Part shown: positions 3,016 through 63,227 of the stretch, piece by piece
How positions within the stretch are numbered: position 1 is the stretch's first letter
How the letters are laid out: each line of letters starts with the position of its first letter
Assembly: GCA_021785495.1 (NCBI GenBank)
Contig: JAJYFB010000001.1
Span: 9,891 to 73,890 of the forward strand
Reading direction: 5' to 3'
Source: Acidobacteriota bacterium
GTDB lineage: Bacteria > Acidobacteriota > Terriglobia > Terriglobales > Acidobacteriaceae
Length of the DNA: 64,000 bases
Notes under the pieces: generated by a model
What the model saw: the letters and a program-made list of their open reading frames with translations, nothing else
Told to the model about the DNA's origin: nothing
Databases searched by the model: none
Made by a program: the position numbers and the translations under genes

Positions 3016-4287
3016 TCAGCCGGCCTTTTCGAGCAGGCAGAGCGAGAGGTCGCGACGCTCGACCATGTCCTTGGTGATTTCGATGTCGCGGATGCGCTTG
3101 CTCGACGGCAGGTTGTACATCAGGTCGAGCATCAGCTCTTCGAGGATCATGCGCAGGCCGCGCGCGCCCACCTTGCGCGTCAACGCTTCGCGGGCAATGG
3201 CCGCCGTGGCGTCCGGCGTAAAGTGCAGGCGGGTATTTTCGTACTCGAAAAGACGCTGGTACTGCTTGAGGATGGCGTTGCGCGGCTTGGTGAGAATCTC
3301 CATCAGCGCAACCTCGTCCAGCTCTTCGAGCACGCCCATCACGGGCAGACGGCCGACAAACTCCGGAATCAATCCAAACTTGATCAGGTCCTGCGGCTCG
3401 GTCTTGCGCAGCAGCTCAGTATCGCGGTGCGAGCGGGTGGTCGCCTGATCGGCGTCGGCATCCACCGAGCGGAAGCCGAGGGCTTTTTTGCCGATGCGGC
3501 GGCCGACGACGCGCTCCAGGCCCACAAAGGCTCCGCCGCAGATGAAGAGAATGTTCGTGGTGTCGACGGCCGTGAACTCCTGGTGGGGATGCTTGCGCCC
3601 ACCCTGCGGCGGCACGTTGGCCACGGTGCCTTCGAGAATCTTGAGCAGCGCCTGCTGCACGCCTTCGCCGGAAACGTCGCGCGTGATCGAGGGATTCTCG
3701 TCCTTGCGGCCGATCTTGTCGATCTCGTCGATGTAAATGATGCCCTGCTGGGTGCGCGTCACATCGCCCTCGGCGGCCTGCAGCAGCTTGAGGATGATGT
3801 TCTCGACATCCTCGCCCACATAGCCGGCCTCGGTGAGCGTGGTCGCGTCCACAATGGCGAAGGGCACGTCGAGCATCTTGGCCAGCGTGTGCGCCAGCAG
3901 CGTCTTGCCCGAACCGGTGGGGCCGATCAGCAGAATGTTCGACTTGGCCAGTTCCACGTCGCTCGAACGCGCGCGATTCATCTGGATGCGCTTGTAGTGG
4001 TTGTAGACGGCGACGGCCAGCTTTTTCTTGGTCTGCTCCTGGCCGATCACGTAGTCGTCGAGGAAGCTCTTGACCTCGGTGGGCTTGGGCAGATGACCGG
4101 CCACCGTAGCCGGCGCTTCGCCGCTGCGATCGTCCTCCAGGATGGAGTTGCAAACGGCTACGCACTCGTCGCAGATGTAGGCACGGGGATAGTCGCTCGG
4201 TGAGGAGATCAATTTCGCCACGGCGTCCTGCGACTTGTGGCAGAACGAACAGCGCAGCGATTCTTCTGGTCCCAATCTCGTTTTCAT
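3016..4287 (-). CDS. clpX: ATP-dependent Clp protease ATP-binding subunit ClpX
   Basis: Zinc finger '[25 protein letters not shown]' and Walker A '[46 protein letters not shown]'. I chose ATG at 4287 (MKTRLGPEE), preceded by GGGGGAG. Confidence 0.95.
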
Positions 4288-4429
4288 TGCCTCAACTCCC
4301 CCCTCAGCCGTTCCTTGACAAGTGTAGTCGCTATCTCTTGCTGCGCTCAGCGCGCTGCCAGTCAGTGATCTTGCCGGCACACCGTCGAGTTGCAGCGCTG
4401 ACGCTTAGCCGAATCGCTTCTCCGCCCCT

Positions 4430-4765
4430 TCACGCGACGTTTTGAAGTTTGGCTTCGATCTTGGCGATACGCTCGGCAAGCGCCTGATAAAACTCCATTC
4501 GACTCAACGTCAACATCATCTCGGCGTGGTTACGTTCCATTTTGGCTTCCAATCGGCTCTCCGCTTTGTCCAGCCGGGCCCCAAGTTCTCCCCGTAAATC
4601 GTCCATCTTGTCGCCAAGATGCTCGATCTTCGCGCCGAGTTTCTCGGTTTTGCCATCCAGCAGCTTCAATCGTTCTTCTACAGCTACGATTCGCGTTTCG
4701 AGCGAACGAATCTCTGGAGTCACGAAGTCCTGAAGCAGCTGCCGTCCTTCTTCGATAAACCCCAT
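4430..4765 (-). CDS. Small coiled-coil protein of unknown function, located between clpP and clpX
   Basis: ATG at 4765 follows GGGAG. The protein is heptad-rich: 'IRSLETRIVAVEERLKLLDGKTEKLGAKIEHLGDKMDDLRGELGARLDKAESRLEAKMER'. Its C-terminal 'EFYQALAERIAKIEAKL' resembles the end of the 7706..7996 product. Confidence 0.6.
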   Translation of the reverse strand: MGFIEEGRQLLQDFVTPEIRSLETRIVAVEERLKLLDGKTEKLGAKIEHLGDKMDDLRGELGARLDKAESRLEAKMERNHAEMMLTLSRMEFYQALAERIAKIEAKLQNVA

Positions 4766-4792
4766 GTTTTGCTCCCGCAACCTTCCGAACGG

Positions 4793-5383
4793 CTAAGCGC
4801 GTGGCCGGTCGATGATCTCGTCGACGATGCCGTATTCCTTGGCCTGCTGCGCGTTCATGATGAAGTCCCGCTCGACGTCGCGCTCGATGCGGTCGAGGGG
4901 TTGGCCGGTGTGACGGGCCATCAGGTTGTTGGTGATCTCGCGGATGCGCAGAATCTCGCGGGCGTGGATGTCGATGTCCGTGGCCTGACCGCTCAGGCCG
5001 CCCATCGAGGGCTGATGAATCAGAATGCGCGAGTTGGGCAGCGCGAACCGCTTGCCCTTGGTTCCGGCCAGCAGCAGGAACGCGCCCATGCTCGCGGCCT
5101 GGCCGATGCAGTAGGTGACCACGTTGTTCTTGATGAACTGCATGGTGTCATAAATGGCCAGCCCGGCCGTGATCGATCCGCCCGGCGAGTTGATATACAG
5201 TGAAATGTCTTTTTCCGGATCCTCGCCCTGCAGGAAAAGCATCTGCGCAACGATGAGATTGGCCACCTGATCGTCGATGGGCGTGCCGAGAAAGATGATG
5301 TTGTCGCGCAGCAGACGGGAGTAAATGTCGTAGGCGCGCTCGCCCCGGCCCGTCTGCTCAACCACCATGGGAATCAATGCCAT
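4793..5383 (-). CDS. clpP: ATP-dependent Clp protease proteolytic subunit ClpP
   Basis: '[68 protein letters not shown]'. ATG at 5383 ([10 protein letters not shown]) is preceded by GAGGAG. Confidence 0.95.
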
Positions 5384-5514
5384 GAATCGATCACTCCTCA
5401 CTGCCAGCTTCGGGGCGGCCGGGGCTTTCATCCGCCCTTGCGCCGAAAGGCTTCCTTTCGGCCATGCTCACGCCAGGTACTGCGGCCGGGGCCCGGTCTT
5501 CGTTGATTCTAAGT

Positions 5515-39646: not shown

Positions 39647-42364
39647 ATGCGGCGGTTCTTGACGCTTGTTTGCTTGTTTGTCCTGGCTCTTCCGGCTGGG
39701 GTCTCCATCTCCGGATGCACGCGCAACCCGGCGGGCAATTACTGCAACGGCCTCGGCTACGGTCTGAAGGACACCGACGTCGATTACATCACCTTGCAGC
39801 CGCAGATCGGCGGCATCTCGCTGGCCTACGGGCAAATCGCGAGCGTACAGTCGCCCACTGCCTATACCTGCAAGGGCAACTCAACCGCCGCCCCGGGTGG
39901 AAAATTCAACTACGGCACCACAAACAATCAGTTGGTGGATATTTCGCCCACGGGAAGACTTTGCGCCGGCACCTGGAACCGCAACACCGGCGGCGGCATC
40001 GCCGACTACACCTACTGCTACGCACCCAGTCCGCTGCCAGCTACCGGGGGACTTCCCTACGCCATCGCCTATATCACGGCCACGACCGCCGCGGTAACCT
40101 CCAACCCTGTCCCCGTCTACGTCCACGCGCCGATCACCTCCATCAGCCTGGCCACGACGCCGCTCGATACCTCGTCCTCGCAATCCTGCTTCTCGCAGAA
40201 CCAGCAGGCGAGCCTGGATGCGTTGGCCTACTACGACAACAACGGTACGGAATCCCTGCTCTGTCAGCCGTCCTCGAACGCGCCGGTCACCGGCTTTTCC
40301 GTCAATAACAATGTTGTGACCCTGAACGCCGCCAACAACTTTGTGGCCGGCGAGATGGTCACCTTCTCCGGCTTGTCCGCCGCCACCTTTTTGAACGGGA
40401 AAACCTGGACCGTCCTCTCGAACGGCCTGAGCAACACGCAGTTCGAGGTGGCCGCCAATGCCGCCAATGCCAGCCAGACGGCCGACAACGGCGCCGCAGC
40501 CACCTCCAGCGCGCTGCCCACCTGCGGCAATTCCATCGGCACCCTCAGCTTCGCCAGCAGCAATTCCTCGATCGCCAACATCAACCCGGCCACGCTCACC
40601 GATCCGCTCTCCACCATCACCGCGCTGATGCCGGGAACCACGACCATCACCGCGACCATCTCCCAGTCCGCATCCTCGGCTGGCTACTTCTCCACCTGCC
40701 CGCCGGCCGCCATCAAGGTCGCGCTGGCCAATGGGTCCACCAGCGGCGTGATCACGCAGGGCGTGACGCAAAACCTGACCACGACCGTCACCGACACCCT
40801 GGGCAAGCCCATCACCGGACTGGATCTCACCTACGAGTCCACCAATCCCATCGAGGTGGCTGCCACGGCCGGCGGAGCCATCACCACCGCCTATCCCGGC
40901 CTCGCCTCGGTCTATGCGGTCTGCGAACCGCCCGGCTGCAATCCCGCGCCCATCAATGTTTACGGATTGAACGGCACCGGCCTGTCGCTGGCTTCCAATC
41001 CCGTCGACATTACCGTCCCCGGCACGACCAGCGATTTTGTCTACTTCGCGGCGCCCGGCCTGTCGCGCTACTTCAGCAGCATGCAGTTGCTTACGGGCAA
41101 TCCCGGCGGAACCACCCTTCTGCCCTACGTCCCCAACTCCCTGGTCATGGACCAGCAGGGCGCCAACCTCTATTTCGGTTCGCTTCGCGAGTTGATGATT
41201 TACTCAACCTCGGCCGACGCCATCACACGGCAAGACGCATCCGTGCCCGGCGTTGTGCTGGCCGCCTCGCCGAACGCCAGCCAGTTGCTCATCAACGACC
41301 AGGTGCGCGGCCTGTTCTACATCTACAACACCGCGGGCAGCATCGCCACCACCTACAGCGGCATGGGCTCGTCGGCGGCATGGACGCCCGATTCGCAGAC
41401 CCTCTACATTGCCGACAGCTCCTCGCTGGGCGGAAACCACACCAACACGCTTTACGTCTATAACGCCAACGTCGGCTGGAGCACCTACACACTGACGAAT
41501 CCAACCAGCGCTTCCGTCGGGCGTAACCTGGCCATTACCGTTCCGGGCGTGGGCGCCTACCTCACGGGCAATCCGACCGTGGACCATACCTGGTGTCCAT
41601 CGGGCAATGTCGGCAACAACGGCAGCATCCTCTTCTATCCCCAATCGGCCTCCGACGTGCTGAACCTCCAGACCGATGTGATTGGGGCTACGCTGGACGG
41701 CAAGCACATGCTCGGCGCAGCGCTCAGCGGCTCGAACATCACGCTCAACGACATCGCCGTGGATATTTCCGCCGCGCCGCTCTGCCCGGTGGATACCGCG
41801 GTTTCGCCGCAAACCATGTCGCCGCTCTCGACCAACCCCTCGATCAATGGAACGGTCACGCTCGGCACGCAGACCGGCGCGAAAACCTTCGCCGCCGCCC
41901 AGGTCAATCAGGTTGTCACCGGTACGGCTCCGGCCACGGCAACCGTGACTACGGCCGCCCCCATTGCTTTTGTCACTTACAACGGCGATACGGCGGGCAA
42001 CCAGCTTCCCTACTATCTGCCGCAATCCTCCGGGCTGGGGCAGGTTGGCTACGTCACCTTTGCCGACGCCAACTCGACCACTGCGCCGCCTACCGCGCCT
42101 CTGACCGGCGCGTTTTCGCCCGATCACTCGCTGTTTTTCGTCTCGACTGCGGGCGACAACGATTTTCACTTCATCAGCATTCCCGACAACGTGAGCACAA
42201 CGGCGCCGCCCACCGACTCGCAGCAGTACAGCCCCAATCTGCCCGCCTGCACTCCGGTCTCGGCGGGAGGCAACGACGCCGACTGCCTCTATCCCACCGC
42301 GCCGACCGCAACCACCTACGTCCCCGCCACGGTGATCGTCGTCAAACCCCGCTCGATCACGTAA
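39647..42364 (+). CDS. Large (905 aa) Thr/Ser/Asn/Gly-rich surface lipoprotein, unknown function
   Basis: GGGGAGGA precedes ATG 39647. 'MRRFLTLVCLFVLALPAGVSISGC' carries a lipobox. The rest is compositionally beta-rich, with Ig-like/propeller-like stretches. I recognise no family. Confidence 0.7.
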   Translation: MRRFLTLVCLFVLALPAGVSISGCTRNPAGNYCNGLGYGLKDTDVDYITLQPQIGGISLAYGQIASVQSPTAYTCKGNSTAAPGGKFNYGTTNNQLVDISPTGRLCAGTWNRNTGGGIADYTYCYAPSPLPATGGLPYAIAYITATTAAVTSNPVPVYVHAPITSISLATTPLDTSSSQSCFSQNQQASLDALAYYDNNGTESLLCQPSSNAPVTGFSVNNNVVTLNAANNFVAGEMVTFSGLSAATFLNGKTWTVLSNGLSNTQFEVAANAANASQTADNGAAATSSALPTCGNSIGTLSFASSNSSIANINPATLTDPLSTITALMPGTTTITATISQSASSAGYFSTCPPAAIKVALANGSTSGVITQGVTQNLTTTVTDTLGKPITGLDLTYESTNPIEVAATAGGAITTAYPGLASVYAVCEPPGCNPAPINVYGLNGTGLSLASNPVDITVPGTTSDFVYFAAPGLSRYFSSMQLLTGNPGGTTLLPYVPNSLVMDQQGANLYFGSLRELMIYSTSADAITRQDASVPGVVLAASPNASQLLINDQVRGLFYIYNTAGSIATTYSGMGSSAAWTPDSQTLYIADSSSLGGNHTNTLYVYNANVGWSTYTLTNPTSASVGRNLAITVPGVGAYLTGNPTVDHTWCPSGNVGNNGSILFYPQSASDVLNLQTDVIGATLDGKHMLGAALSGSNITLNDIAVDISAAPLCPVDTAVSPQTMSPLSTNPSINGTVTLGTQTGAKTFAAAQVNQVVTGTAPATATVTTAAPIAFVTYNGDTAGNQLPYYLPQSSGLGQVGYVTFADANSTTAPPTAPLTGAFSPDHSLFFVSTAGDNDFHFISIPDNVSTTAPPTDSQQYSPNLPACTPVSAGGNDADCLYPTAPTATTYVPATVIVVKPRSIT

Positions 42365-42601
42365 AGCTGCCGCCTGCGTCCATCGATTCGATCTTCAGGA
42401 CCGAATCGATGGGCTCGCTCATGGCGGTTGCCGCAACTGCCGCGGTGCGCAATTGCGCCAAAACCCGAATCGAGCGAGCCACTTGAGCTACTTGCAAAAG
42501 GCAATCAGAGATCGCCGGATGGGAAAGGGCGCGATTTCCGCTTTTCCGCCAGAGAACAAAGCCGCCGCTTCCGTCGGACGATCAACATGCGCCTGAGACG
42601 C

Positions 42602-43912
42602 TCAGGCGTTCGCCTCAGCGGGAAGGTCGATCGGGACTGGTTCCACATGCGCAAGAGTCGGGTTGAGCGCACTTTCGCCGCTCCGCGGCTCGGCCTGCGC
42701 CGTGAAGAACCGCTCCACTTCGGCCAGCACATCGGCGCCGCAGCGCGATTGATAAATGGCCGCGCGCAGCTTTGCTCCTCCAGCAATCCCGTGCGTGAAC
42801 CAGGTGGCGAACTGTTTCATCTTGCCCACGGGATCGCCCATGCGCGCATCGCGCGGCAGTTCCTTGGTCGCTTCGGCCTCGGCCATCAGCATCTCGAAGT
42901 AGGCGCGGATCATGCGGTAGCGATCCTCGCCGGTGGGCAGCGTGTAGCGGCCGGTCGCCGTGTACTCGGCGATCTGCCGGAAGATCCAGGGATTGGCCGG
43001 AGCGGCGCGGCCGATCATCACGCCGTCGCAGCCGGTCTCGGCCACCATCGCCACGGCGTCCTCCGGCGTGCGGATGTCGCCGTTGCCGATCACCGGCAAT
43101 CGCACGGCGTCCTTGACCGCGGCGATCCAGTTCCATTGCGCCTGGCCGCCGTAGCCCTGCTCGCGGGTGCGCGCATGCAGCGCCAGTCCGTCGAGCCCTT
43201 CGGCCTCGGCCATCCGCGCCAGTTCCACGCAGACGATCTCCTGCTCGTTCCAGCCCATGCGGAACTTGACGGTGAACGGAATCGCGACCGCCTTGCGCAC
43301 GGCCCGGAAGATCTCACCGATTTGCGGCAGGTCGCGCAGCAGTCCCGAGCCGCCATTCGAGCAGACCACGCGCTTGGCCGGGCAGCCCAGGTTCAGATCG
43401 ACCGTGTCAAAGCCCGTCTCCTCGACGACGCGCGCGGCCTCGGCCAGCGTCTCCGGCTTCGAGCCGAACAACTGCGCCCCGATCGGGTGCTCGTCGTCGT
43501 AAAAGGTCAGGTAGCGGCGGCGCTTGGCCTCGCGCATCCGCGAAAGCCCGTCGGCCGAGGTGAACTCGGTCATCAGCAGCCCGCAGCCGGACTCGAAGTT
43601 GCTGATGGCGGCTGCGACGCTTTCACTGCCCGAATCCCGATCCGTGCAACCGTACGCCTCCGGTCTTGTCTTTGCGGCCGGAGAGGCATGGCTCGCATCC
43701 GCATCCGCGTGCGTAAAGAAGCTGGCGTGCCGAATGAACCGCCGGAAGACCGTGTCCGTAACGCCGGCCATCGGAGCCAGCACCGTCGCCGGCCGCACCG
43801 CGACCGCGCCCAGGCGCACCTCGGCCGGAACCCGCGTCAAGGCAGGCATCAAGTGCTCCACCGGATTGTCCCAGTGCTTCTTCACCGTGAATCCGCGCCG
43901 CGGCATGTGCAT
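42602..43912 (-). CDS. tRNA-dihydrouridine synthase (Dus family)
   Basis: 'VLAPMAGVTDTVFRRF','DLNLGCPAKRV','TVKFRMGW','ALHARTREQGYGGQAQW','PVIGNGDI','GVMIGRAAPANPWIF'. A ~45-aa insert follows the first motif. Confidence 0.9.
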   Translation of the reverse strand: MHMPRRGFTVKKHWDNPVEHLMPALTRVPAEVRLGAVAVRPATVLAPMAGVTDTVFRRFIRHASFFTHADADASHASPAAKTRPEAYGCTDRDSGSESVAAAISNFESGCGLLMTEFTSADGLSRMREAKRRRYLTFYDDEHPIGAQLFGSKPETLAEAARVVEETGFDTVDLNLGCPAKRVVCSNGGSGLLRDLPQIGEIFRAVRKAVAIPFTVKFRMGWNEQEIVCVELARMAEAEGLDGLALHARTREQGYGGQAQWNWIAAVKDAVRLPVIGNGDIRTPEDAVAMVAETGCDGVMIGRAAPANPWIFRQIAEYTATGRYTLPTGEDRYRMIRAYFEMLMAEAEATKELPRDARMGDPVGKMKQFATWFTHGIAGGAKLRAAIYQSRCGADVLAEVERFFTAQAEPRSGESALNPTLAHVEPVPIDLPAEANA

Positions 43913-43938
43913 CTTCCCATTCGCAGAACAACTTCCCG

Positions 43939-44523
43939 TTAGATGCGCACTTCAATGTCCGGACGGCTCTTCGCCAAGAGCTTGGTTTCGATCGCCTTCA
44001 ACTTTGCCGGGTCTACGCGAAAACGTTCGGGATGAAGCGAGAGGCTGGCCCGCGGCAAATCGCCGCCGCTCTCGTCAATCAAGATCACCCCAAGCCGTCC
44101 GATCCCATCCTGCGCAAAGATTCCCAGGCGCGCAAGATCGAATTGCAGTGCGTCAAAGTAGGCAACAGGAATCGCCAGGTAGCGAAAGTGCGCCGGCATC
44201 GACATGAAATGCCGATGGGCATTCTTGATCGCTTCACGCTGCGCTTTGGTTTGGTCGGCAGAAAGTTCCGTTTCATTTTGCGTAAGCCGCTTGGACGCAA
44301 AACTCTTGCTGAACTTGTCGGGCAGTTGAATTTCAACCGCGTGCAAATCGCCCGCGCCAGCACGATCCACGGCCAGCACGTCCGCGGCGATTAAGGCGGG
44401 AGGGGGTTGCAGATAGATGTTCGGAACCGACAGTTTGCTGCGAAGCAACTCGGCGACCGCGTTAATTGCGCGTCCCGAACGCTGACGTTCTGTCAACTTT
44501 AGGGCTTCCACTTGTGCCGCCAT
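43939..44523 (-). CDS. Hypothetical protein, partner of the HEPN gene (possible degenerate PD-(D/E)xK-like fold)
   Basis: ATG at 44523 follows AGGTAGGTGA. An alternative GTG at 44532 overlaps the HEPN stop (GTGA). The only suggestive motif is 'ADVLAVDRAGAGDLHAVEIQL'. The region is low in GC. Confidence 0.55.
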   Translation of the reverse strand: MAAQVEALKLTERQRSGRAINAVAELLRSKLSVPNIYLQPPPALIAADVLAVDRAGAGDLHAVEIQLPDKFSKSFASKRLTQNETELSADQTKAQREAIKNAHRHFMSMPAHFRYLAIPVAYFDALQFDLARLGIFAQDGIGRLGVILIDESGGDLPRASLSLHPERFRVDPAKLKAIETKLLAKSRPDIEVRI

Positions 44524-44528
44524 TGCAG

Positions 44529-44930
44529 TCACCTACCTTTCTGTTTTTGCAGAATCCGCTCGGCCCAGGTTTGAAATCGCTCGGCGGAAATTGAGAGCGC
44601 CTCTGCTTTTTCGTCGCTCACCCGCTGGTCTCCATAGGAAATATCCGTCTTGACTCGCACCAGCTTCTCGAAATGGACGATCCCACCAGGATCAATCTTT
44701 GCGCGCGTGCAGGCTTGCTTGAGTGCGGAGATGGCTGCCCGATGGTTTTCTCCACGCGGCCGCGTCTTGCTAAGCCCGATCAGAACGGCGTCGCTGTAAG
44801 AGATGGCGCTATGTACAGCCAGCAATGCCACGGCCGCCGCGTACGTCCGCAGATCGTCCCGACAAAGCTTCATCGCATCGGCCAGTTGAACGGCGCGGCG
44901 ATAGTAGACATGCAAACCTGCCTCGATCAT
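44529..44930 (-). CDS. Minimal HEPN-domain protein (133 aa)
   Basis: 'YAAAVALLAVHSAISYSDAVLIGL','RPRGENH' (R-x5-H), and 'LVRVKTDISYGDQRVSDEKAEALSISAERFQTWAERIL', which resembles the classical HEPN C-terminal helices. Confidence 0.6.
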   Translation of the reverse strand: MIEAGLHVYYRRAVQLADAMKLCRDDLRTYAAAVALLAVHSAISYSDAVLIGLSKTRPRGENHRAAISALKQACTRAKIDPGGIVHFEKLVRVKTDISYGDQRVSDEKAEALSISAERFQTWAERILQKQKGR

Positions 44931-44950
44931 GCACCACTATCATCGCACGA

Positions 44951-44980
44951 GAAAAGGCCCCCGCCGCAGCGGAGGCCTTT
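44951..44980 (-). terminator. Intrinsic terminator of rpmE
   Basis: On the minus strand, AAGGCCTCCGC-tgcg-GCGGGGGCCTT (one mismatch) is followed by TTTTCTCG. Confidence 0.6.
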
Positions 44981-45008
44981 GTCGCTCGACGCCTTGCGCG
45001 GGGGCAGA

Positions 45009-45230
45009 TTACGCCTTCGCCTCCAGCGACTTGGCGTACTTGCGGCGGAAGCGCTCGACACGGCCGGCCGTATCGACCAGGCGCTGTTTGCCCGTGAAGA
45101 ACGGGTGGCAGACCGAGCAGATTTCCACGTGGATGTCGCCCTTGTGGGTCGACCGCGTCTCAAAGCTGTTTCCGCAGGCGCACAGCACGCGCACCGCTTC
45201 GTAGTTGGGGTGAATCTTTTCCTTCGGCAT
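45009..45230 (-). CDS. rpmE: 50S ribosomal protein L31
   Basis: '[65 protein letters not shown]'. Confidence 0.95.
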
Positions 45231-45405
45231 CGACAGACAGACCTTTCGTTGCGCTCTTCCCGCTGCGCGCTTCGCTCCATCTATTGTAGGGGGATTCGCC
45301 GGGTTGCGCAATCGCCGGCAATGGCCGGAACCCGGTCCGCCGCTCTCCAAAGTCACATCGGGCCAAGGGCCACCCGCAGCCACCATGTAGAATACTGTCT
45401 ATTCG

Positions 45406-46206
45406 ATGACGAATTCCCCCTTTTCGGCCGCTCCTCAGGCCTCCCGCGCCGCGCGGGAAGGCGAACTGCGGGCTGCATCGCCTTCGCCCGCAATCGAGCC
45501 CGCATCCCAACCCGCGTCGGGGCCGTTGATTCGCGTCGAAGGGCTGGGCAAGTCCTACCGCACGGCGCGCGGCAAGCTGGTTCTCTTCGACAACCTCGAT
45601 TTCGAGGTCGCCCCCGGCGAACTGGTGGCGATTGTGGGCCAGTCCGGGACCGGAAAAAGCACACTTTTGCACATCCTCGGCGCGCTTGATGCGCCCTCGG
45701 CGGGAAGGGTATACTGCGCGTCTATCGACGTGGCCACCCTCGGCCCGCGCGAGGCGGCGGCCTTTCGCAACCGCGAGATCGGCTACGTCTGGCAGTTTCA
45801 CTACCTGCTGCCGGAGTTCACGGCGGCGGAGAATGTGGCCATGCCGCTTTTGGCCCGGGGCATGCGCCCGGCCGAAGCCATGCAAAGGGCGGCGCAGTGG
45901 CTGAAGGAGGTGGATCTGGAGGATCGCGGAACGCACCGGCCCGGCGAGCTTTCCGGCGGCGAGCAGCAGCGCGTGGCGCTGGCCCGCGCCCTGGTCTGCG
46001 AGCCACGTCTGCTGCTGGCCGATGAGCCCACCGGCGACCTCGACGACACAACCGCCGGCCGCGTCTTCGAACTGATTGAGCGGCTGCACGCGACGCATGG
46101 GCTCACGTCGATTCTGGTCACGCACAATCTGGAACTGGCCCAGCGTTGCACGCGCACGTTGCGCCTGGCCAACGGGAGATTGACGGCGTTTGCGGGCGCT
46201 GCGTAG
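45406..46206 (+). CDS. ABC transporter ATP-binding protein (LolD/MacB-type)
   Basis: 'GQSGTGKSTLLHILG','FRNREIGYVWQFHYLLPEFTAAENV','LSGGEQQRVALARAL','LLLADEPTGDLD'. No permease gene is adjacent. Confidence 0.85.
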   Translation: MTNSPFSAAPQASRAAREGELRAASPSPAIEPASQPASGPLIRVEGLGKSYRTARGKLVLFDNLDFEVAPGELVAIVGQSGTGKSTLLHILGALDAPSAGRVYCASIDVATLGPREAAAFRNREIGYVWQFHYLLPEFTAAENVAMPLLARGMRPAEAMQRAAQWLKEVDLEDRGTHRPGELSGGEQQRVALARALVCEPRLLLADEPTGDLDDTTAGRVFELIERLHATHGLTSILVTHNLELAQRCTRTLRLANGRLTAFAGAA

Positions 46207-46235
46207 CTGGCGGCCCCGAAAAACAGGGTTCAGGT

Positions 46236-46374
46236 AGCCACTTGCAAAATTCGTCGCACAGGCGCGGTTTTGAAAGGGCACGACTTCAGTCGTGCCAAGA
46301 ACGTCAACAAAATGAGAGGGGCTTTAGCCCCTGACCCAAGGCCCCACCGGCATTCTCGAATTTTGCAAGTGGCT
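46236..46374. mobile_element. 139-bp MITE, family 2, best-preserved copy
   Basis: Perfect 18-bp TIRs: agccacttgcaaaattcg ... cgaattttgcaagtggct. The internal hairpin is ggcacgac-ttca-gtcgtgcc. CAGGGTTC occurs on both flanks (46224-46231 and 46376-46383), offset by 1-4 nt. Confidence 0.8.
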
Positions 46375-46763
46375 CCAGGGTTCGGTTTTACCTTTTGGCG
46401 GTTTGGCTCGATGGCTCCTCTGCAACACTTTTCCCGATTGCATCGTTTTTCCAGTTTTTGAGTCTGTATACCAAAGCCCCAAAGGATTTCATCGAGAAGG
46501 GCTGTCGAGGCCGGGATGGGAGCCGGACGGCGCGTCAAAGCCGGACGGCGTCGCGGGGAAAGACGATCCCGAACCATCCACAAGAGCCGCACGAGACGGG
46601 GCGGAAATTGTCCGCTTCGGCTGCGGGCGGCGAGGCAACGGGAAGGGCGCGCAACCGGGTTGATGCCCGGAGCGGGAACTGCCGATAAGAACTCTTCGCC
46701 GCAGGCGGTTCTCGACTCTGGAGGTCGGCTCGGGCCCGCGGCCCGCAGCGAAGGGAGCGCACT

Positions 46764-49229
<2,466 letters not shown>

Positions 49230-61257: not shown

Positions 61258-61367
61258 CGCAGGAAGGCGCTGGAACAGACGACGAACTCATTGAACATTT
61301 AGAATAAAAGTTGCTGCGATTTTCACATCGCTCGCGCCAGGCGGGCGGGAAAGCTTGTTATTTCTCT

Positions 61368-63227
<1,860 letters not shown>

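What the first reader, a model, noticed from the sequence alone, without database searches (positions are those of the whole stretch)
43939..44930. Low-GC two-gene islet: a minimal HEPN protein coupled to an unassignable ~195-aa partner, without the usual MNT
Hand counts of 60-nt lines inside this segment give 47% and 52% GC. Flanking genes look mid-60s, so this is a compositional island of about 1 kb. It is wedged exactly between the rpmE terminator (44951-44980) and the dus start (43912).

Gene 1 (133 aa) has HEPN hallmarks: 'LLAVHSAISYSDAVL', an R-x5-H motif 'RPRGENH', and the C-terminal 'SYGDQRVSDEKAEALSISAERF'.

HEPN toxins are normally paired with a minimal nucleotidyltransferase (GSxxRG...DxD), and none is present. 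The downstream gene is translationally coupled instead, either by a GTGA overlap or by an ATG 5 nt after the stop. It has no motif I can place except 'DVLAVDRAGAGDLHAVEIQL'. That resembles the D...(D/E)xK strand pair of PD-(D/E)xK nucleases with K replaced by Q.

This looks like an atypical toxin-antitoxin or abortive-infection/defence module.
Basis: partly seen in the sequence, partly recalled or inferred. Interest (0 to 1): 0.7.

Follow-up and report, generated by a model that had tools for sequence, protein, structure and literature searches.

The report
Swappable HEPN–nuclease-like gene pair
Two small overlapping genes of unknown function, one with the fold of HEPN RNA-cutting toxins and one that looks like a restriction-enzyme-type nuclease, form a strictly linked pair. 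In soil Acidobacteria the pair always sits between a ribosomal-protein gene and a tRNA-modification gene, yet it is swapped for very different versions between close relatives, which suggests an undescribed toxin-antitoxin or phage-defence module.

Summary
Both genes are real. Gene A is 44529-44930(-), 133 aa. Gene B is 43939-44523(-), 194 aa. They are translationally coupled and lie between the rpmE terminator and dus.

The segment is the lowest-GC 1-kb stretch of the window (0.571 vs 0.641). GC3 is 0.63-0.64 against 0.85 for the neighbours.

A has a confident HEPN fold. The top PDB match is AF0298/2hsb (TM 0.79). The conserved R57-x5-H63 probably lies in the helix-2/3 insert. The canonical motif site carries an invariant K94-x4-Y99, as in AF0298/AbiV-type HEPNs.

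B is probably a divergent PD-(D/E)xK fold. All evidence for this is weak but points the same way.

Neither protein matches Pfam, NCBIfam, PADLOC or PHROGs.

The pair is a strictly linked unit:
- 42 of 43 genomes have A next to B.
- All 75 metagenome loci with enough upstream sequence have A next to B.
- Fusion proteins exist.
- A and B distances correlate at r = 0.91.
- dN/dS is about 0.15.

It is not a recent islet. The order rpmE-A-B-dus holds across Terriglobia, and the low GC3 is conserved. However, close relatives with 96% identical flanks carry unrelated-looking cassette types. In other phyla the pair sits in restriction-modification/TIR/Abi islands.

Best reading: a new HEPN-based toxin-antitoxin or abortive-infection module with a non-MNT partner, fixed at a chromosomal hotspot. 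No function has been demonstrated.

The parts
44529..44930 (-). Gene A, 133 aa: HEPN-fold protein of an unannotated family. It has five helices: 2-24, 27-52, 63-76, 81-98 and 106-132. Family-wide conserved polar residues are H40, D47, R57, H63, H86, K94 and Y99.
   Evidence: ORF. AlphaFold model with pLDDT 89.8. Foldseek PDB top hits are HEPN proteins 2hsb, 1o3u, 1wol and 1ufb, plus HepT toxins. Conservation. No Pfam, NCBIfam, PADLOC or PHROG hit. dN/dS is 0.147.
43939..44523 (-). Gene B, 194 aa from the ATG (197 aa if the GTG at 44532 is used): probably a divergent PD-(D/E)xK (restriction-endonuclease-like) fold. Its core motif is D48-x4-D53-R-x-G-x-G-D59-x-H61-x2-E64-x-Q66. It also has a variable insert at about 67-105, the conserved motifs PAHFRYLA, DGIGRLG and PERFR, and an invariant C-terminal tail SRPDIEVRI.
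   Evidence: ORF. Alignments. The model is only pLDDT 62, with an alpha-beta-beta-beta-alpha-beta core. Weak Foldseek hits to PaqCI, XisH and YaeQ and to MmcB-like proteins. Weak Pfam hits of family members to NucS_C, MmcB-like, UPF0102, Mrr_cat, SduA_C and DUF234. dN/dS is 0.151.
44523..44532 (-). A/B junction. A's TGA stop (44529-44531) overlaps the GTG at 44532 (GTGA). It is followed 5 nt later by B's ATG at 44523, giving translational coupling.
   Evidence: Sequence. Relatives have A and B overlapping or 0-30 nt apart.
44953..44980 (-). rpmE intrinsic-terminator hairpin (AAAGGCCUCCGC-UGCG-GCGGGGGCCUUUU). It ends about 20 nt before A's ATG and leaves no room for a separate promoter.
   Evidence: Fold. 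No sigma-70-like promoter found. The hairpin is conserved in 39 of 39 related loci, usually 22-27 nt from A's start.
45009..45230 (-). rpmE (ribosomal protein L31): the conserved upstream border of the cassette site.
42602..43912 (-). dus (tRNA-dihydrouridine synthase): the conserved downstream border. It starts 26 nt after B's stop. In some relatives its start overlaps B's stop.

Best explanation
A and B form one two-protein module of the toxin-antitoxin / abortive-infection kind.

Gene A is a HEPN-fold protein, the presumed RNase effector. Its site is non-canonical. It is built from a histidine in the helix-2/3 insert (H63, with R57), an acidic residue and a histidine in helix 2 (D47, H40), and K94/Y99 at the place where canonical HEPNs carry Rx4-6H.

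Gene B is a restriction-endonuclease-like (PD-(D/E)xK-type) protein. It takes the place that a minimal nucleotidyltransferase occupies in classical HEPN-MNT systems. It binds A and either keeps it inactive or acts as a nucleic-acid sensor or second nuclease.

In Terriglobia the module has been captured at one chromosomal site between rpmE and dus. It is probably expressed at a low level by read-through of the rpmE terminator. Divergent cassette types are exchanged there by recombination in the conserved flanks.

Shown: fold of A, strict linkage, co-evolution, purifying selection, cassette replacement, defence-island contexts elsewhere.
Inferred: physical interaction, which partner is toxic, RNase activity, trigger, read-through expression.
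For: Fold of A:
- The HEPN fold is predicted confidently (pLDDT 89.8).
- The best PDB matches are HEPN proteins (2hsb E = 7e-4, TM 0.79/0.83; also 1o3u, 1wol, 1ufb and HepT toxins).
- The conserved residues fit the AF0298/AbiV-type alternative site described in PMC3710099.

Linkage:
- A lies directly upstream of B in 42 of 43 species-level genomes.
- The same holds in 75 of 80 metagenome loci. The 5 misses have less than 135 nt of upstream sequence.
- Start/stop coupling is conserved.

Fusions:
- B-like domains are fused to a canonical HEPN domain (Ex3R plus R[NS]xxxHG) in 11 representatives.
- A-B single-ORF forms exist (P0420).

Co-evolution and selection:
- Pairwise distances of A and B correlate at r = 0.91, against 0.62 with Dus.
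- dN/dS is about 0.15 for both.

Cassette replacement:
- L043 and L050 have 96% identical dus DNA but no nucleotide similarity across A-B, and about 40% protein identity.
- At least 3 cassette types occur within one Dus cluster.

Composition:
- GC3 is persistently about 0.58 against 0.80 for dus across 43 genomes.

Contexts outside Acidobacteriota:
- next to AbiEii;
- next to an HTH plus N6_N4 methylase;
- in an MmeI-like restriction-modification / HEPN_LA2681 / TIR island;
- next to a methylase plus HinfI;
- inserted in a dsr operon.
Against: - No toxicity, neutralisation or defence data exist.
- Neither protein matches any PADLOC, PHROG, Pfam or NCBIfam model.
- No relatives were found on viral contigs.
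- In Terriglobia the pair sits at a fixed housekeeping site, apparently co-transcribed with rpmE and dus. It is under purifying selection as strong as that on Dus. This is unusual for selfish toxin-antitoxin modules.
- The canonical Rx4-6H is absent from its canonical position, so RNase activity is uncertain.
- The fold of B rests on a low-confidence model (pLDDT 62) and sub-threshold hits only.
- E64 and K66 are conserved in only 75% and 62% of the family.
- All loci were found by searching for B. Occupancy of the rpmE|dus site, including empty sites, was therefore not sampled without bias.
Confidence: 0.5

Rival explanations
1. Same toxin-antitoxin-type module but with reversed roles. B, an active PD-(D/E)xK nuclease, is the toxin. 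A, a HEPN-fold protein that has lost the canonical Rx4-6H, is the antitoxin or inhibitor encoded upstream, as in most type II operons.
For: - The gene order is small upstream gene, then larger enzyme-like downstream gene, with overlapping stop/start.
- The canonical HEPN site carries K-x4-Y instead of R-x4-6-H.
- B has near-invariant acidic, histidine and basic residues: D48, D53, D/E59, H61, R143, E166 and R167.
- In some relatives B carries its own canonical HEPN domain while a separate A is still present upstream.
Against: - A keeps seven near-invariant polar residues clustered where HEPN active sites lie. That is more than a simple binder needs.
- A evolves no faster than B (mean distances 0.517 and 0.512).
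- The classical ExK of B is the least conserved part of its motif. It is Q in this very protein.
Confidence: 0.2
2. A lineage-specific housekeeping RNA-processing or quality-control complex (HEPN RNase plus nuclease-like partner). It would act with the translation and tRNA-modification machinery and be co-expressed with L31 and Dus.
For: - The order rpmE-A-B-dus is conserved across Terriglobia, even where A and B are only 31-45% identical to the window proteins.
- B's stop overlaps or abuts the dus start in several loci.
- The rpmE terminator-to-A spacing is conserved.
- dN/dS is about 0.15, like Dus.
- A second acidobacterial location is also in housekeeping surroundings, between hemE-hemH-hemY and gltX.
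Against: - Genomes with 96% identical flanks carry cassettes with no nucleotide similarity. This is hard to reconcile with a conserved housekeeping substrate.
- GC3 is persistently foreign-looking.
- In WOR-3 and other bacteria the pair is not near rpmE or dus. It lies among restriction-modification, TIR, HEPN_LA2681 and AbiEii genes.
- One genome appears to lack A.
Confidence: 0.2
3. A recently acquired horizontally transferred islet of orphan genes, as its low GC suggests, with no conserved role.
For: It is the lowest-GC 1-kb segment of the window, and there are no database annotations.
Against: - Hundreds of homologues exist.
- The same position and the same low GC3 occur in 43 genomes and 80 metagenome loci.
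- Purifying selection is strong.
Confidence: 0.03

Closest known systems
HEPN-MNT (HepT-MntA, type VII) toxin-antitoxin systems
   Same: Both are two small, adjacent, co-directional genes, one of which has the minimal HEPN fold. HepT structures (7ae6, 8xeh, 6m6u) are among the Foldseek matches of A. Both are found in variable, defence-rich neighbourhoods in several phyla.
   Different: - The partner is not a minimal nucleotidyltransferase. It has no GS...DxD motif and no NTase structural hit.
- The gene order is reversed, with the HEPN gene first.
- A lacks the RX4HXY motif at the canonical site.
- In Terriglobia the module is locked at a single core-genome site.
AF0298-like HEPN-T proteins (PDB 2hsb; Pfam PF05168) and AbiV
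   Same: 2hsb is the best structural match (TM 0.79/0.83, rmsd 2.3 A). According to PMC3710099 these families lack the His of Rx4-6H, keep the basic residue, and use an alternative conserved His from the helix-2/3 insert. This is the pattern seen in A (K94, H63).
   Different: - Sequence similarity is at noise level. Only 2 of 43 members touch PF05168, at E = 0.014.
- PF05168 proteins pair with MNT, and AbiV is a single gene. Here the obligate partner is B.
HEPN domains fused or linked to restriction-endonuclease-fold domains (DUF4145-REase, HEPN-M fused to a Holliday-junction-resolvase-like REase, EC042_2821; Anantharaman et al. 2013, PMC3710099)
   Same: A HEPN domain is combined with a PD-(D/E)xK-type domain in conflict systems. 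Relatives of B are fused to a canonical HEPN domain.
   Different: Those are different HEPN and REase families, mostly single polypeptides. The A and B families match none of the corresponding Pfam models.
MmcB-like / NucS / YraN-type small PD-(D/E)xK nucleases
   Same: - The motif D-[VIL]-L-A-[VI]-D...H-x-V-E-x-K lies on two predicted adjacent strands after an N-terminal helix.
- The top BFVD structural hits are MmcB-like proteins.
- There are weak Pfam hits to NucS_C, MmcB-like, UPF0102 and Mrr_cat.
   Different: - Nothing reaches significance.
- hhalign against E. coli YraN found nothing.
- The best-conserved residues (D53, D/E59, H61, R143, E166, R167) are not the classical triad.
- K is replaced by Q in this protein.

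Membership tests
HEPN superfamily (gene A) | [quoted passage not shown] | tested here: met
   The model has pLDDT 89.8 and five helices. The top Foldseek PDB hits are HEPN structures: 2hsb at E = 7e-4 and TM 0.79/0.83, plus 1o3u, 1wol, 1ufb and HepT toxins.
HEPN superfamily (gene A) | Rx4-6H motif at the end of core helix 3 (PMC3710099) | tested here: inconclusive
   A conserved R57-x5-H63 exists (R in 89%, H in 100% of members). By the model's helix order it lies in the helix-2/3 insert. The end of helix 3 carries an invariant K94-x4-Y99-G instead. This matches the AF0298/AbiV variant described in PMC3710099. No residue-level structural alignment was available to confirm it.
HEPN superfamily (gene A) | Conserved acidic residue in helix 2 near the active site | tested here: met
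   D47 is conserved in 100% of 98 unique family members and lies in predicted helix 27-52.
HEPN superfamily (gene A) | Significant match to a curated HEPN sequence profile | tested here: not met
   The window protein has no Pfam hit at E <= 10. Two of 43 orthologues hit PF05168 at E >= 0.014. A PDB profile search was empty. hhalign against the canonical HEPN domains fused to B relatives gave no signal.
HEPN superfamily (gene A) | Metal-independent endoribonuclease activity | not testable with these tools
   Requires biochemistry.
HEPN-MNT (HepT/MntA) toxin-antitoxin system | Adjacent minimal nucleotidyltransferase (GSx...DxD) that AMPylates the HEPN toxin | tested here: not met
   B has no NTase motif. 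It has no NTase hit in Pfam or Foldseek. No other small gene lies between rpmE and dus.
HEPN-MNT (HepT/MntA) toxin-antitoxin system | RX4HXY motif with the modifiable Tyr in the HEPN toxin | tested here: not met
   The canonical position reads K94-T-D-I-S-Y99-G, with no His.
PD-(D/E)xK restriction-endonuclease-like superfamily (gene B) | alpha-beta-beta-beta-alpha-beta core fold | tested here: inconclusive
   The predicted secondary-structure order fits: helix 12-31, strands 36-39 and 60-64 with the DVLAVD segment (48-53, not assigned as a strand in the model) between them, helix 89-107, strand 113-119. However, the model has only pLDDT 62.
PD-(D/E)xK restriction-endonuclease-like superfamily (gene B) | Catalytic D ... 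(D/E)-x-K on strands 2 and 3 | tested here: inconclusive
   The window protein has D48 ... E64-I-Q66. Across the family D48 is 99% conserved, E64 75%, and K66 62% plus R 10%. From memory, not checked here, BglII (ExQ) and BamHI (ExE) are active enzymes with such variants.
PD-(D/E)xK restriction-endonuclease-like superfamily (gene B) | Significant profile or structure match to a known member | tested here: not met
   Only sub-threshold, mutually consistent hits were found:
- PaqCI at E = 0.016, plus XisH and YaeQ;
- MmcB-like proteins at E = 6e-3, probability 0.96;
- NucS_C at E = 0.002, plus MmcB-like, UPF0102, Mrr_cat, SduA_C and DUF234, one member each.
YraN hhalign was negative. PDB profile searches were empty.
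Type II-like toxin-antitoxin module (generic) | Two small adjacent co-directional genes with coupled translation, strictly co-occurring | tested here: met
   A and B distances correlate at r = 0.91. Fusions exist.
Type II-like toxin-antitoxin module (generic) | Mobility or patchy distribution, independent of host phylogeny | tested here: inconclusive
   Cassette replacement occurs between near-identical flanks. Contexts vary in WOR-3 and other bacteria. Within the window's own clade, however, the pair is vertically stable at one site. No transposase or integrase is adjacent, and none was found on viral contigs.
Type II-like toxin-antitoxin module (generic) | One product toxic, the other neutralising | not testable with these tools
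   Needs expression assays.
Catalogued anti-phage defence systems (PADLOC-DB 2.0) | Match of either protein to a system model | tested here: not met
   No hits for A or B. Remote relatives give only noise-level hits: PDC-S11 at E about 0.004-0.01, and RTasHEPN at 0.026 on the fused HEPN domain.

The most novel reading that the evidence does not exclude
The A-B pair founds a previously undescribed family of HEPN-based immunity or addiction modules. In it a PD-(D/E)xK-like protein replaces the nucleotidyltransferase antitoxin. In Terriglobia the rpmE|dus junction is a dedicated hotspot where highly divergent cassette alleles are kept and exchanged, under balancing or diversifying selection. Expression is tied to read-through of a ribosomal-protein terminator.
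Probability: 0.4. Interest if true: 0.7.

Novelty: new variant of a known kind. Interest (0 to 1): 0.6.

Why it matters
HEPN RNases drive many toxin-antitoxin, abortive-infection and CRISPR-associated systems. Their best-known small-module form is controlled by a nucleotidyltransferase. Here is a widespread module that no annotation or defence database recognises: hundreds of sequences in soil Acidobacteria, plus WOR-3 and others. It couples a non-canonical HEPN with a nuclease-like partner instead.

Its population genetics are unusual. One fixed core-genome site holds interchangeable, deeply divergent cassettes, keeps a foreign-looking codon composition, and has no promoter of its own.

If the module is functional in defence or addiction, three things follow:
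- It adds a new control logic for HEPN toxins.
- It provides a natural example of a single-site immune-cassette hotspot in an abundant but poorly studied soil phylum.
- It gives two new protein families to add to defence-finding tools.

Tried and rejected
- Single-sequence and per-member scans of A and B against Pfam, NCBIfam, PADLOC and PHROGs gave nothing above threshold.
- Profile searches of the A, B and broad-B alignments against PDB sequences gave only chance hits, to syntrophin and archaeosine TGT.
- hhalign of the B family against E. coli YraN gave no alignment. A single-sequence template is a weak test.
- hhalign of the A family against the canonical HEPN domains fused to B relatives gave no signal. 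The proposed correspondence of K94-x4-Y99-G with R-x4-H-G therefore rests on helix order only.
- Viral-contig scans for A and B found no relatives.
- An Rfam scan of 42000-47000 found only sub-threshold hits on the terminator hairpin.
- The promoter scan found no sigma-70-like site around the pair.
It was repeated with the subgroup alignment A4.
- The 'recent HGT islet' reading was rejected, because position and low GC3 are conserved across the clade.
- The idea that B is an MNT-like antitoxin was rejected (no NTase features).
- L048 was considered as evidence of decay. All four genes there carry frameshifts, so assembly error cannot be excluded.
Full report
OBSERVATION

Two minus-strand ORFs fill the gap between rpmE and dus. 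Gene A is 44529-44930 (ATG, 133 aa). Gene B is 43939-44532 from a GTG that overlaps A's TGA, or 43939-44523 from an ATG 5 nt after the stop. Orthologue N-termini align with the ATG start, giving 194 aa.

The rpmE stop (45009) is followed by a strong hairpin plus U-tract at 44953-44980. That hairpin ends about 20 nt before A's ATG. The dus gene starts 26 nt after B's stop.

The segment has GC 0.571 against 0.641 for the window. It is the lowest 992-nt window of all; 0.16% of windows are as low. GC3 is 0.63-0.64, against 0.85-0.87 for dus and rpmE. The GC dip is real but milder than the hand counts.

ARE THEY GENES?

Yes. A has 282 homologues and B has 419, in the word-indexed search. All are 'hypothetical', and the named ones come from Terracidiphilus or Acidobacteriota MAGs. 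Alignments are colinear, with 70-73% mean column identity. Pairwise dN/dS within the window's cassette type is 0.147 for A and 0.151 for B, against 0.129 for Dus.

WHAT IS A?

No Pfam, NCBIfam, PADLOC or PHROG model matches it. AlphaFold2 with 43 sequences gives a confident five-helix model: pLDDT 89.8, pTM 0.87, helices 2-24, 27-52, 63-76, 81-98 and 106-132.

Foldseek against the PDB returns HEPN proteins at the top:
- AF0298/2hsb (E = 7e-4, TM 0.79/0.83, rmsd 2.3 A over the whole chain);
- TM0613/1o3u, ST0689/1wol and TT1696/1ufb;
- HepT toxins 7ae6, 8xeh and 6m6u.

Two of 43 orthologues touch Pfam HEPN PF05168 weakly, at E = 0.014. The HEPN fold is therefore supported.

The motif assignment needs correction. 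Anantharaman et al. 2013 (PMC3710099) make three relevant points:
- The canonical Rx4-6H lies at the end of core helix 3.
- Inserts occur between helices 2 and 3.
- AF0298-like HEPN-T proteins and AbiV lack the motif's His, keep the basic residue, and use an alternative conserved His from that insert.

The end of the helix that corresponds to core helix 3 reads K94-T-D-I-S-Y99-G. Across 98 unique family members from all cassette types and phyla, conservation is H40 99%, D47 100%, R57 89%, H63 100%, H86 91%, K94 100% and Y99 100%.

A therefore looks like an AF0298/AbiV-type HEPN with an alternative polar site. This mapping is an inference from helix order. I had no residue-level structural alignment. 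hhalign between the A family and canonical HEPN domains gave no signal.

WHAT IS B?

No database model matches it. The AlphaFold model is poor, at pLDDT 62. Its secondary-structure order is helix, three strands, variable insert with a helix, strand, helix, hairpin, helix. This is compatible with the PD-(D/E)xK core.

The family signature is D-[VIL]-[LVM]-A-[VI]-D-R-x-G-x-G-[DE]-x-H-x-V-E-x-K. Over 218 unique sequences, conservation is as follows:
- D48 99%, D53 98%, D/E59 99%, H61 94%;
- E64 75%, K66 62% (plus R 10%);
- G142 100%, R143 94%, G145 99%;
- E166 95%, R167 96%, F168 97%.

The window protein has Q66.

Independent weak signals all point to the same superfamily:
- Foldseek PDB hits to the PaqCI restriction enzyme (E = 0.016), XisH and YaeQ.
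- Foldseek BFVD top hits are MmcB-like DNA-repair proteins (E = 6e-3, probability 0.96).
- Pfam sub-threshold hits of individual members to NucS_C (0.002), MmcB-like, UPF0102, Mrr_cat, SduA_C and DUF234. From my own knowledge, these all belong to the PD-(D/E)xK clan.

None of these is significant on its own. hhalign against E. coli YraN found nothing. I rate the fold assignment at about 0.7-0.75. B is not a nucleotidyltransferase.

THE PAIR IS ONE UNIT

A GTDB scan with the B profile found 43 species-level loci, all from Acidobacteriaceae, Terracidiphilus or Korobacteraceae MAGs. A lies immediately upstream in 42 of them.

An exhaustive profile search of 1.84 billion representatives found 170 B relatives. 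Most are a 160-aa form that lacks the variable insert. A metagenome scan with that subgroup gave 80 loci. The A profile finds an A-like ORF directly upstream on the same strand in 75 of them. The five misses have less than 135 nt of upstream sequence.

Pairwise distances of A and B correlate at r = 0.91.

Rosetta-stone evidence comes from fusions:
- Eleven representatives of 285-295 aa fuse a B-like domain to a C-terminal domain with Ex3R and R-[NS]-x3-H-G. That is a canonical minimal HEPN, with weak HepT-like Pfam hits. At least one such locus still has an A-like gene upstream.
- Single ORFs joining A and B also occur, for example P0420 of 296 aa lying between rpmE and dus. A frameshift artefact cannot be excluded there.

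NOT A RECENT ISLET, BUT A CASSETTE SITE

The order rpmE-A-B-dus is conserved in the Terracidiphilus contigs and in most of the 43 genomes. It also holds in the 80 distant loci where A and B are only 31-45% identical to the window proteins. There rpmE is seen in 48 and dus in 64, and most misses are short contigs.

The low GC3 is conserved too. The mean is 0.58 for both A and B, against 0.80 for dus, across 43 genomes. The rpmE terminator hairpin is present in 39 of 39 loci examined and usually ends 22-27 nt before A's start. No sigma-70-like promoter is found. This suggests expression by terminator read-through, which is an inference.

The cassette does not simply track the host, however. Distances of A and B correlate only at 0.62 with Dus. 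L043 and L050 have Dus 97% identical and dus DNA 96% identical. They show no nucleotide similarity across A-B and only about 40% protein identity. At least three cassette types occur within a single Dus cluster. Within the window's own clade one type is stable across many Dus clusters.

A second acidobacterial location, hemE-hemH-hemY | A-B | gltX, also shows low GC3.

CONTEXTS OUTSIDE ACIDOBACTERIOTA

A-like plus B-like pairs (A confirmed at E = 1e-21 to 1e-30) occur in these settings:
- next to AbiEii in WOR-3;
- near an HTH plus N6_N4 methylase;
- directly after an MmeI-like restriction-modification gene, a HEPN_LA2681 protein and a TIR protein;
- next to a methylase plus HinfI endonuclease;
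- inserted in a dsr operon.

No relatives were found on viral contigs.

INTERPRETATION

The following features are those of toxin-antitoxin or abortive-infection modules:
- strict pairing;
- translational coupling;
- co-evolution;
- fusions;
- defence-island neighbourhoods in other phyla;
- replacement of the cassette between near-identical flanks;
- persistently atypical codon composition.

The following are those of housekeeping genes, and keep that rival alive:
- the fixed core-genome site;
- the apparent operon with rpmE and dus;
- selection as strong as on Dus.

I favour a HEPN-based conflict module in which B replaces MNT as A's partner (confidence about 0.5 for the class). Which partner is toxic remains open. 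Reversed roles get 0.2 and the housekeeping reading gets 0.2.

An important caveat applies. All loci were found through B, so empty rpmE|dus sites were not sampled. One genome (L048) seems to lack A, but all its genes are frameshifted.

NOVELTY

HEPN-REase associations are known in general (PMC3710099), and HEPN-MNT is well studied. This particular pair of families, its non-canonical HEPN site, and its single-site cassette behaviour in Terriglobia are not covered by Pfam, NCBIfam, PADLOC or PHROGs. They are also not covered in the papers I searched. I class it as a new variant of a known kind, with interest 0.6.

Noticed in passing
window 44953-44980 (-); loci L006-L047, L052, L053, L066 and L075 between rpmE and gene A: The rpmE terminator hairpin (GGCCTCCGC-NNNN-GCGGAGGCC plus T-run) is conserved in sequence in 39 of 39 related loci. 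In most of them it ends a nearly constant 22-27 nt before gene A's start codon. No promoter-like site lies in between, which suggests that A-B(-dus) expression depends on terminator read-through.
   Followed up: partly
P0298, P0299, P0300, P0303-P0305, P0314, P0342, P0348, P0353, P0366; locus L131 5001-5864: Proteins of 285-295 aa fuse a gene-B-like domain to a canonical minimal HEPN domain (Ex3R in helix 2, R-[NS]-x3-H-G). Locus L131 still has a separate gene-A-like ORF upstream, so some systems carry two different HEPN domains.
   Followed up: partly
locus L141 3792-4682 (P0420, 296 aa); also P0431, P0427: Single ORFs join an A-like N-terminal part to a B-like C-terminal part, lying between rpmE and dus. 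The end of the A part deviates from the family consensus, so this is either a real fusion or a frameshift.
   Followed up: partly
locus L048 5680-7360: This is the one genome without a recognisable gene A. Its gene B has an internal deletion. However, rpmE, B and dus all show frameshifts, so the assembly is probably error-prone.
   Followed up: partly
window 4430-4780 (-): A 116-aa ORF that looks coiled-coil from its sequence (MREQNMGFIEEGRQLLQDF...) sits between clpP (4793-5431) and clpX (3016-4380). It lies in one of the few other low-GC stretches of the window (200-nt GC down to 0.54).
   Followed up: no
window 61311-63227 (+): The prolyl-tRNA synthetase gene contains local GC dips to 0.48-0.52. 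This makes it the third-lowest GC region of the window although it is a core gene.
   Followed up: no
window 46200-46500: There is a sharp GC dip (0.52 in a 300-nt window) downstream of the ABC-transporter ATPase-like ORF (45406-46206, +). The region appears to be non-coding. It was not examined.
   Followed up: no
loci L001-L005 (e.g. L001 2260-3000, minus strand): A PF01695 (IstB_IS21-type ATPase) gene lies 1.5-2.5 kb upstream of rpmE in several Terracidiphilus relatives. I did not determine whether it is an IS21 helper or a DnaC-like gene.
   Followed up: no
alignment A3 members: Ten of 47 diverse B-family proteins give weak hits (best E = 0.01) to Pfam DUF5812, a family of unknown function. 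In the two proteins whose coordinates were shown (P0298 and P0290), the hit lies in the D...ExK region. This may be a remote relationship worth a profile-profile test.
   Followed up: no
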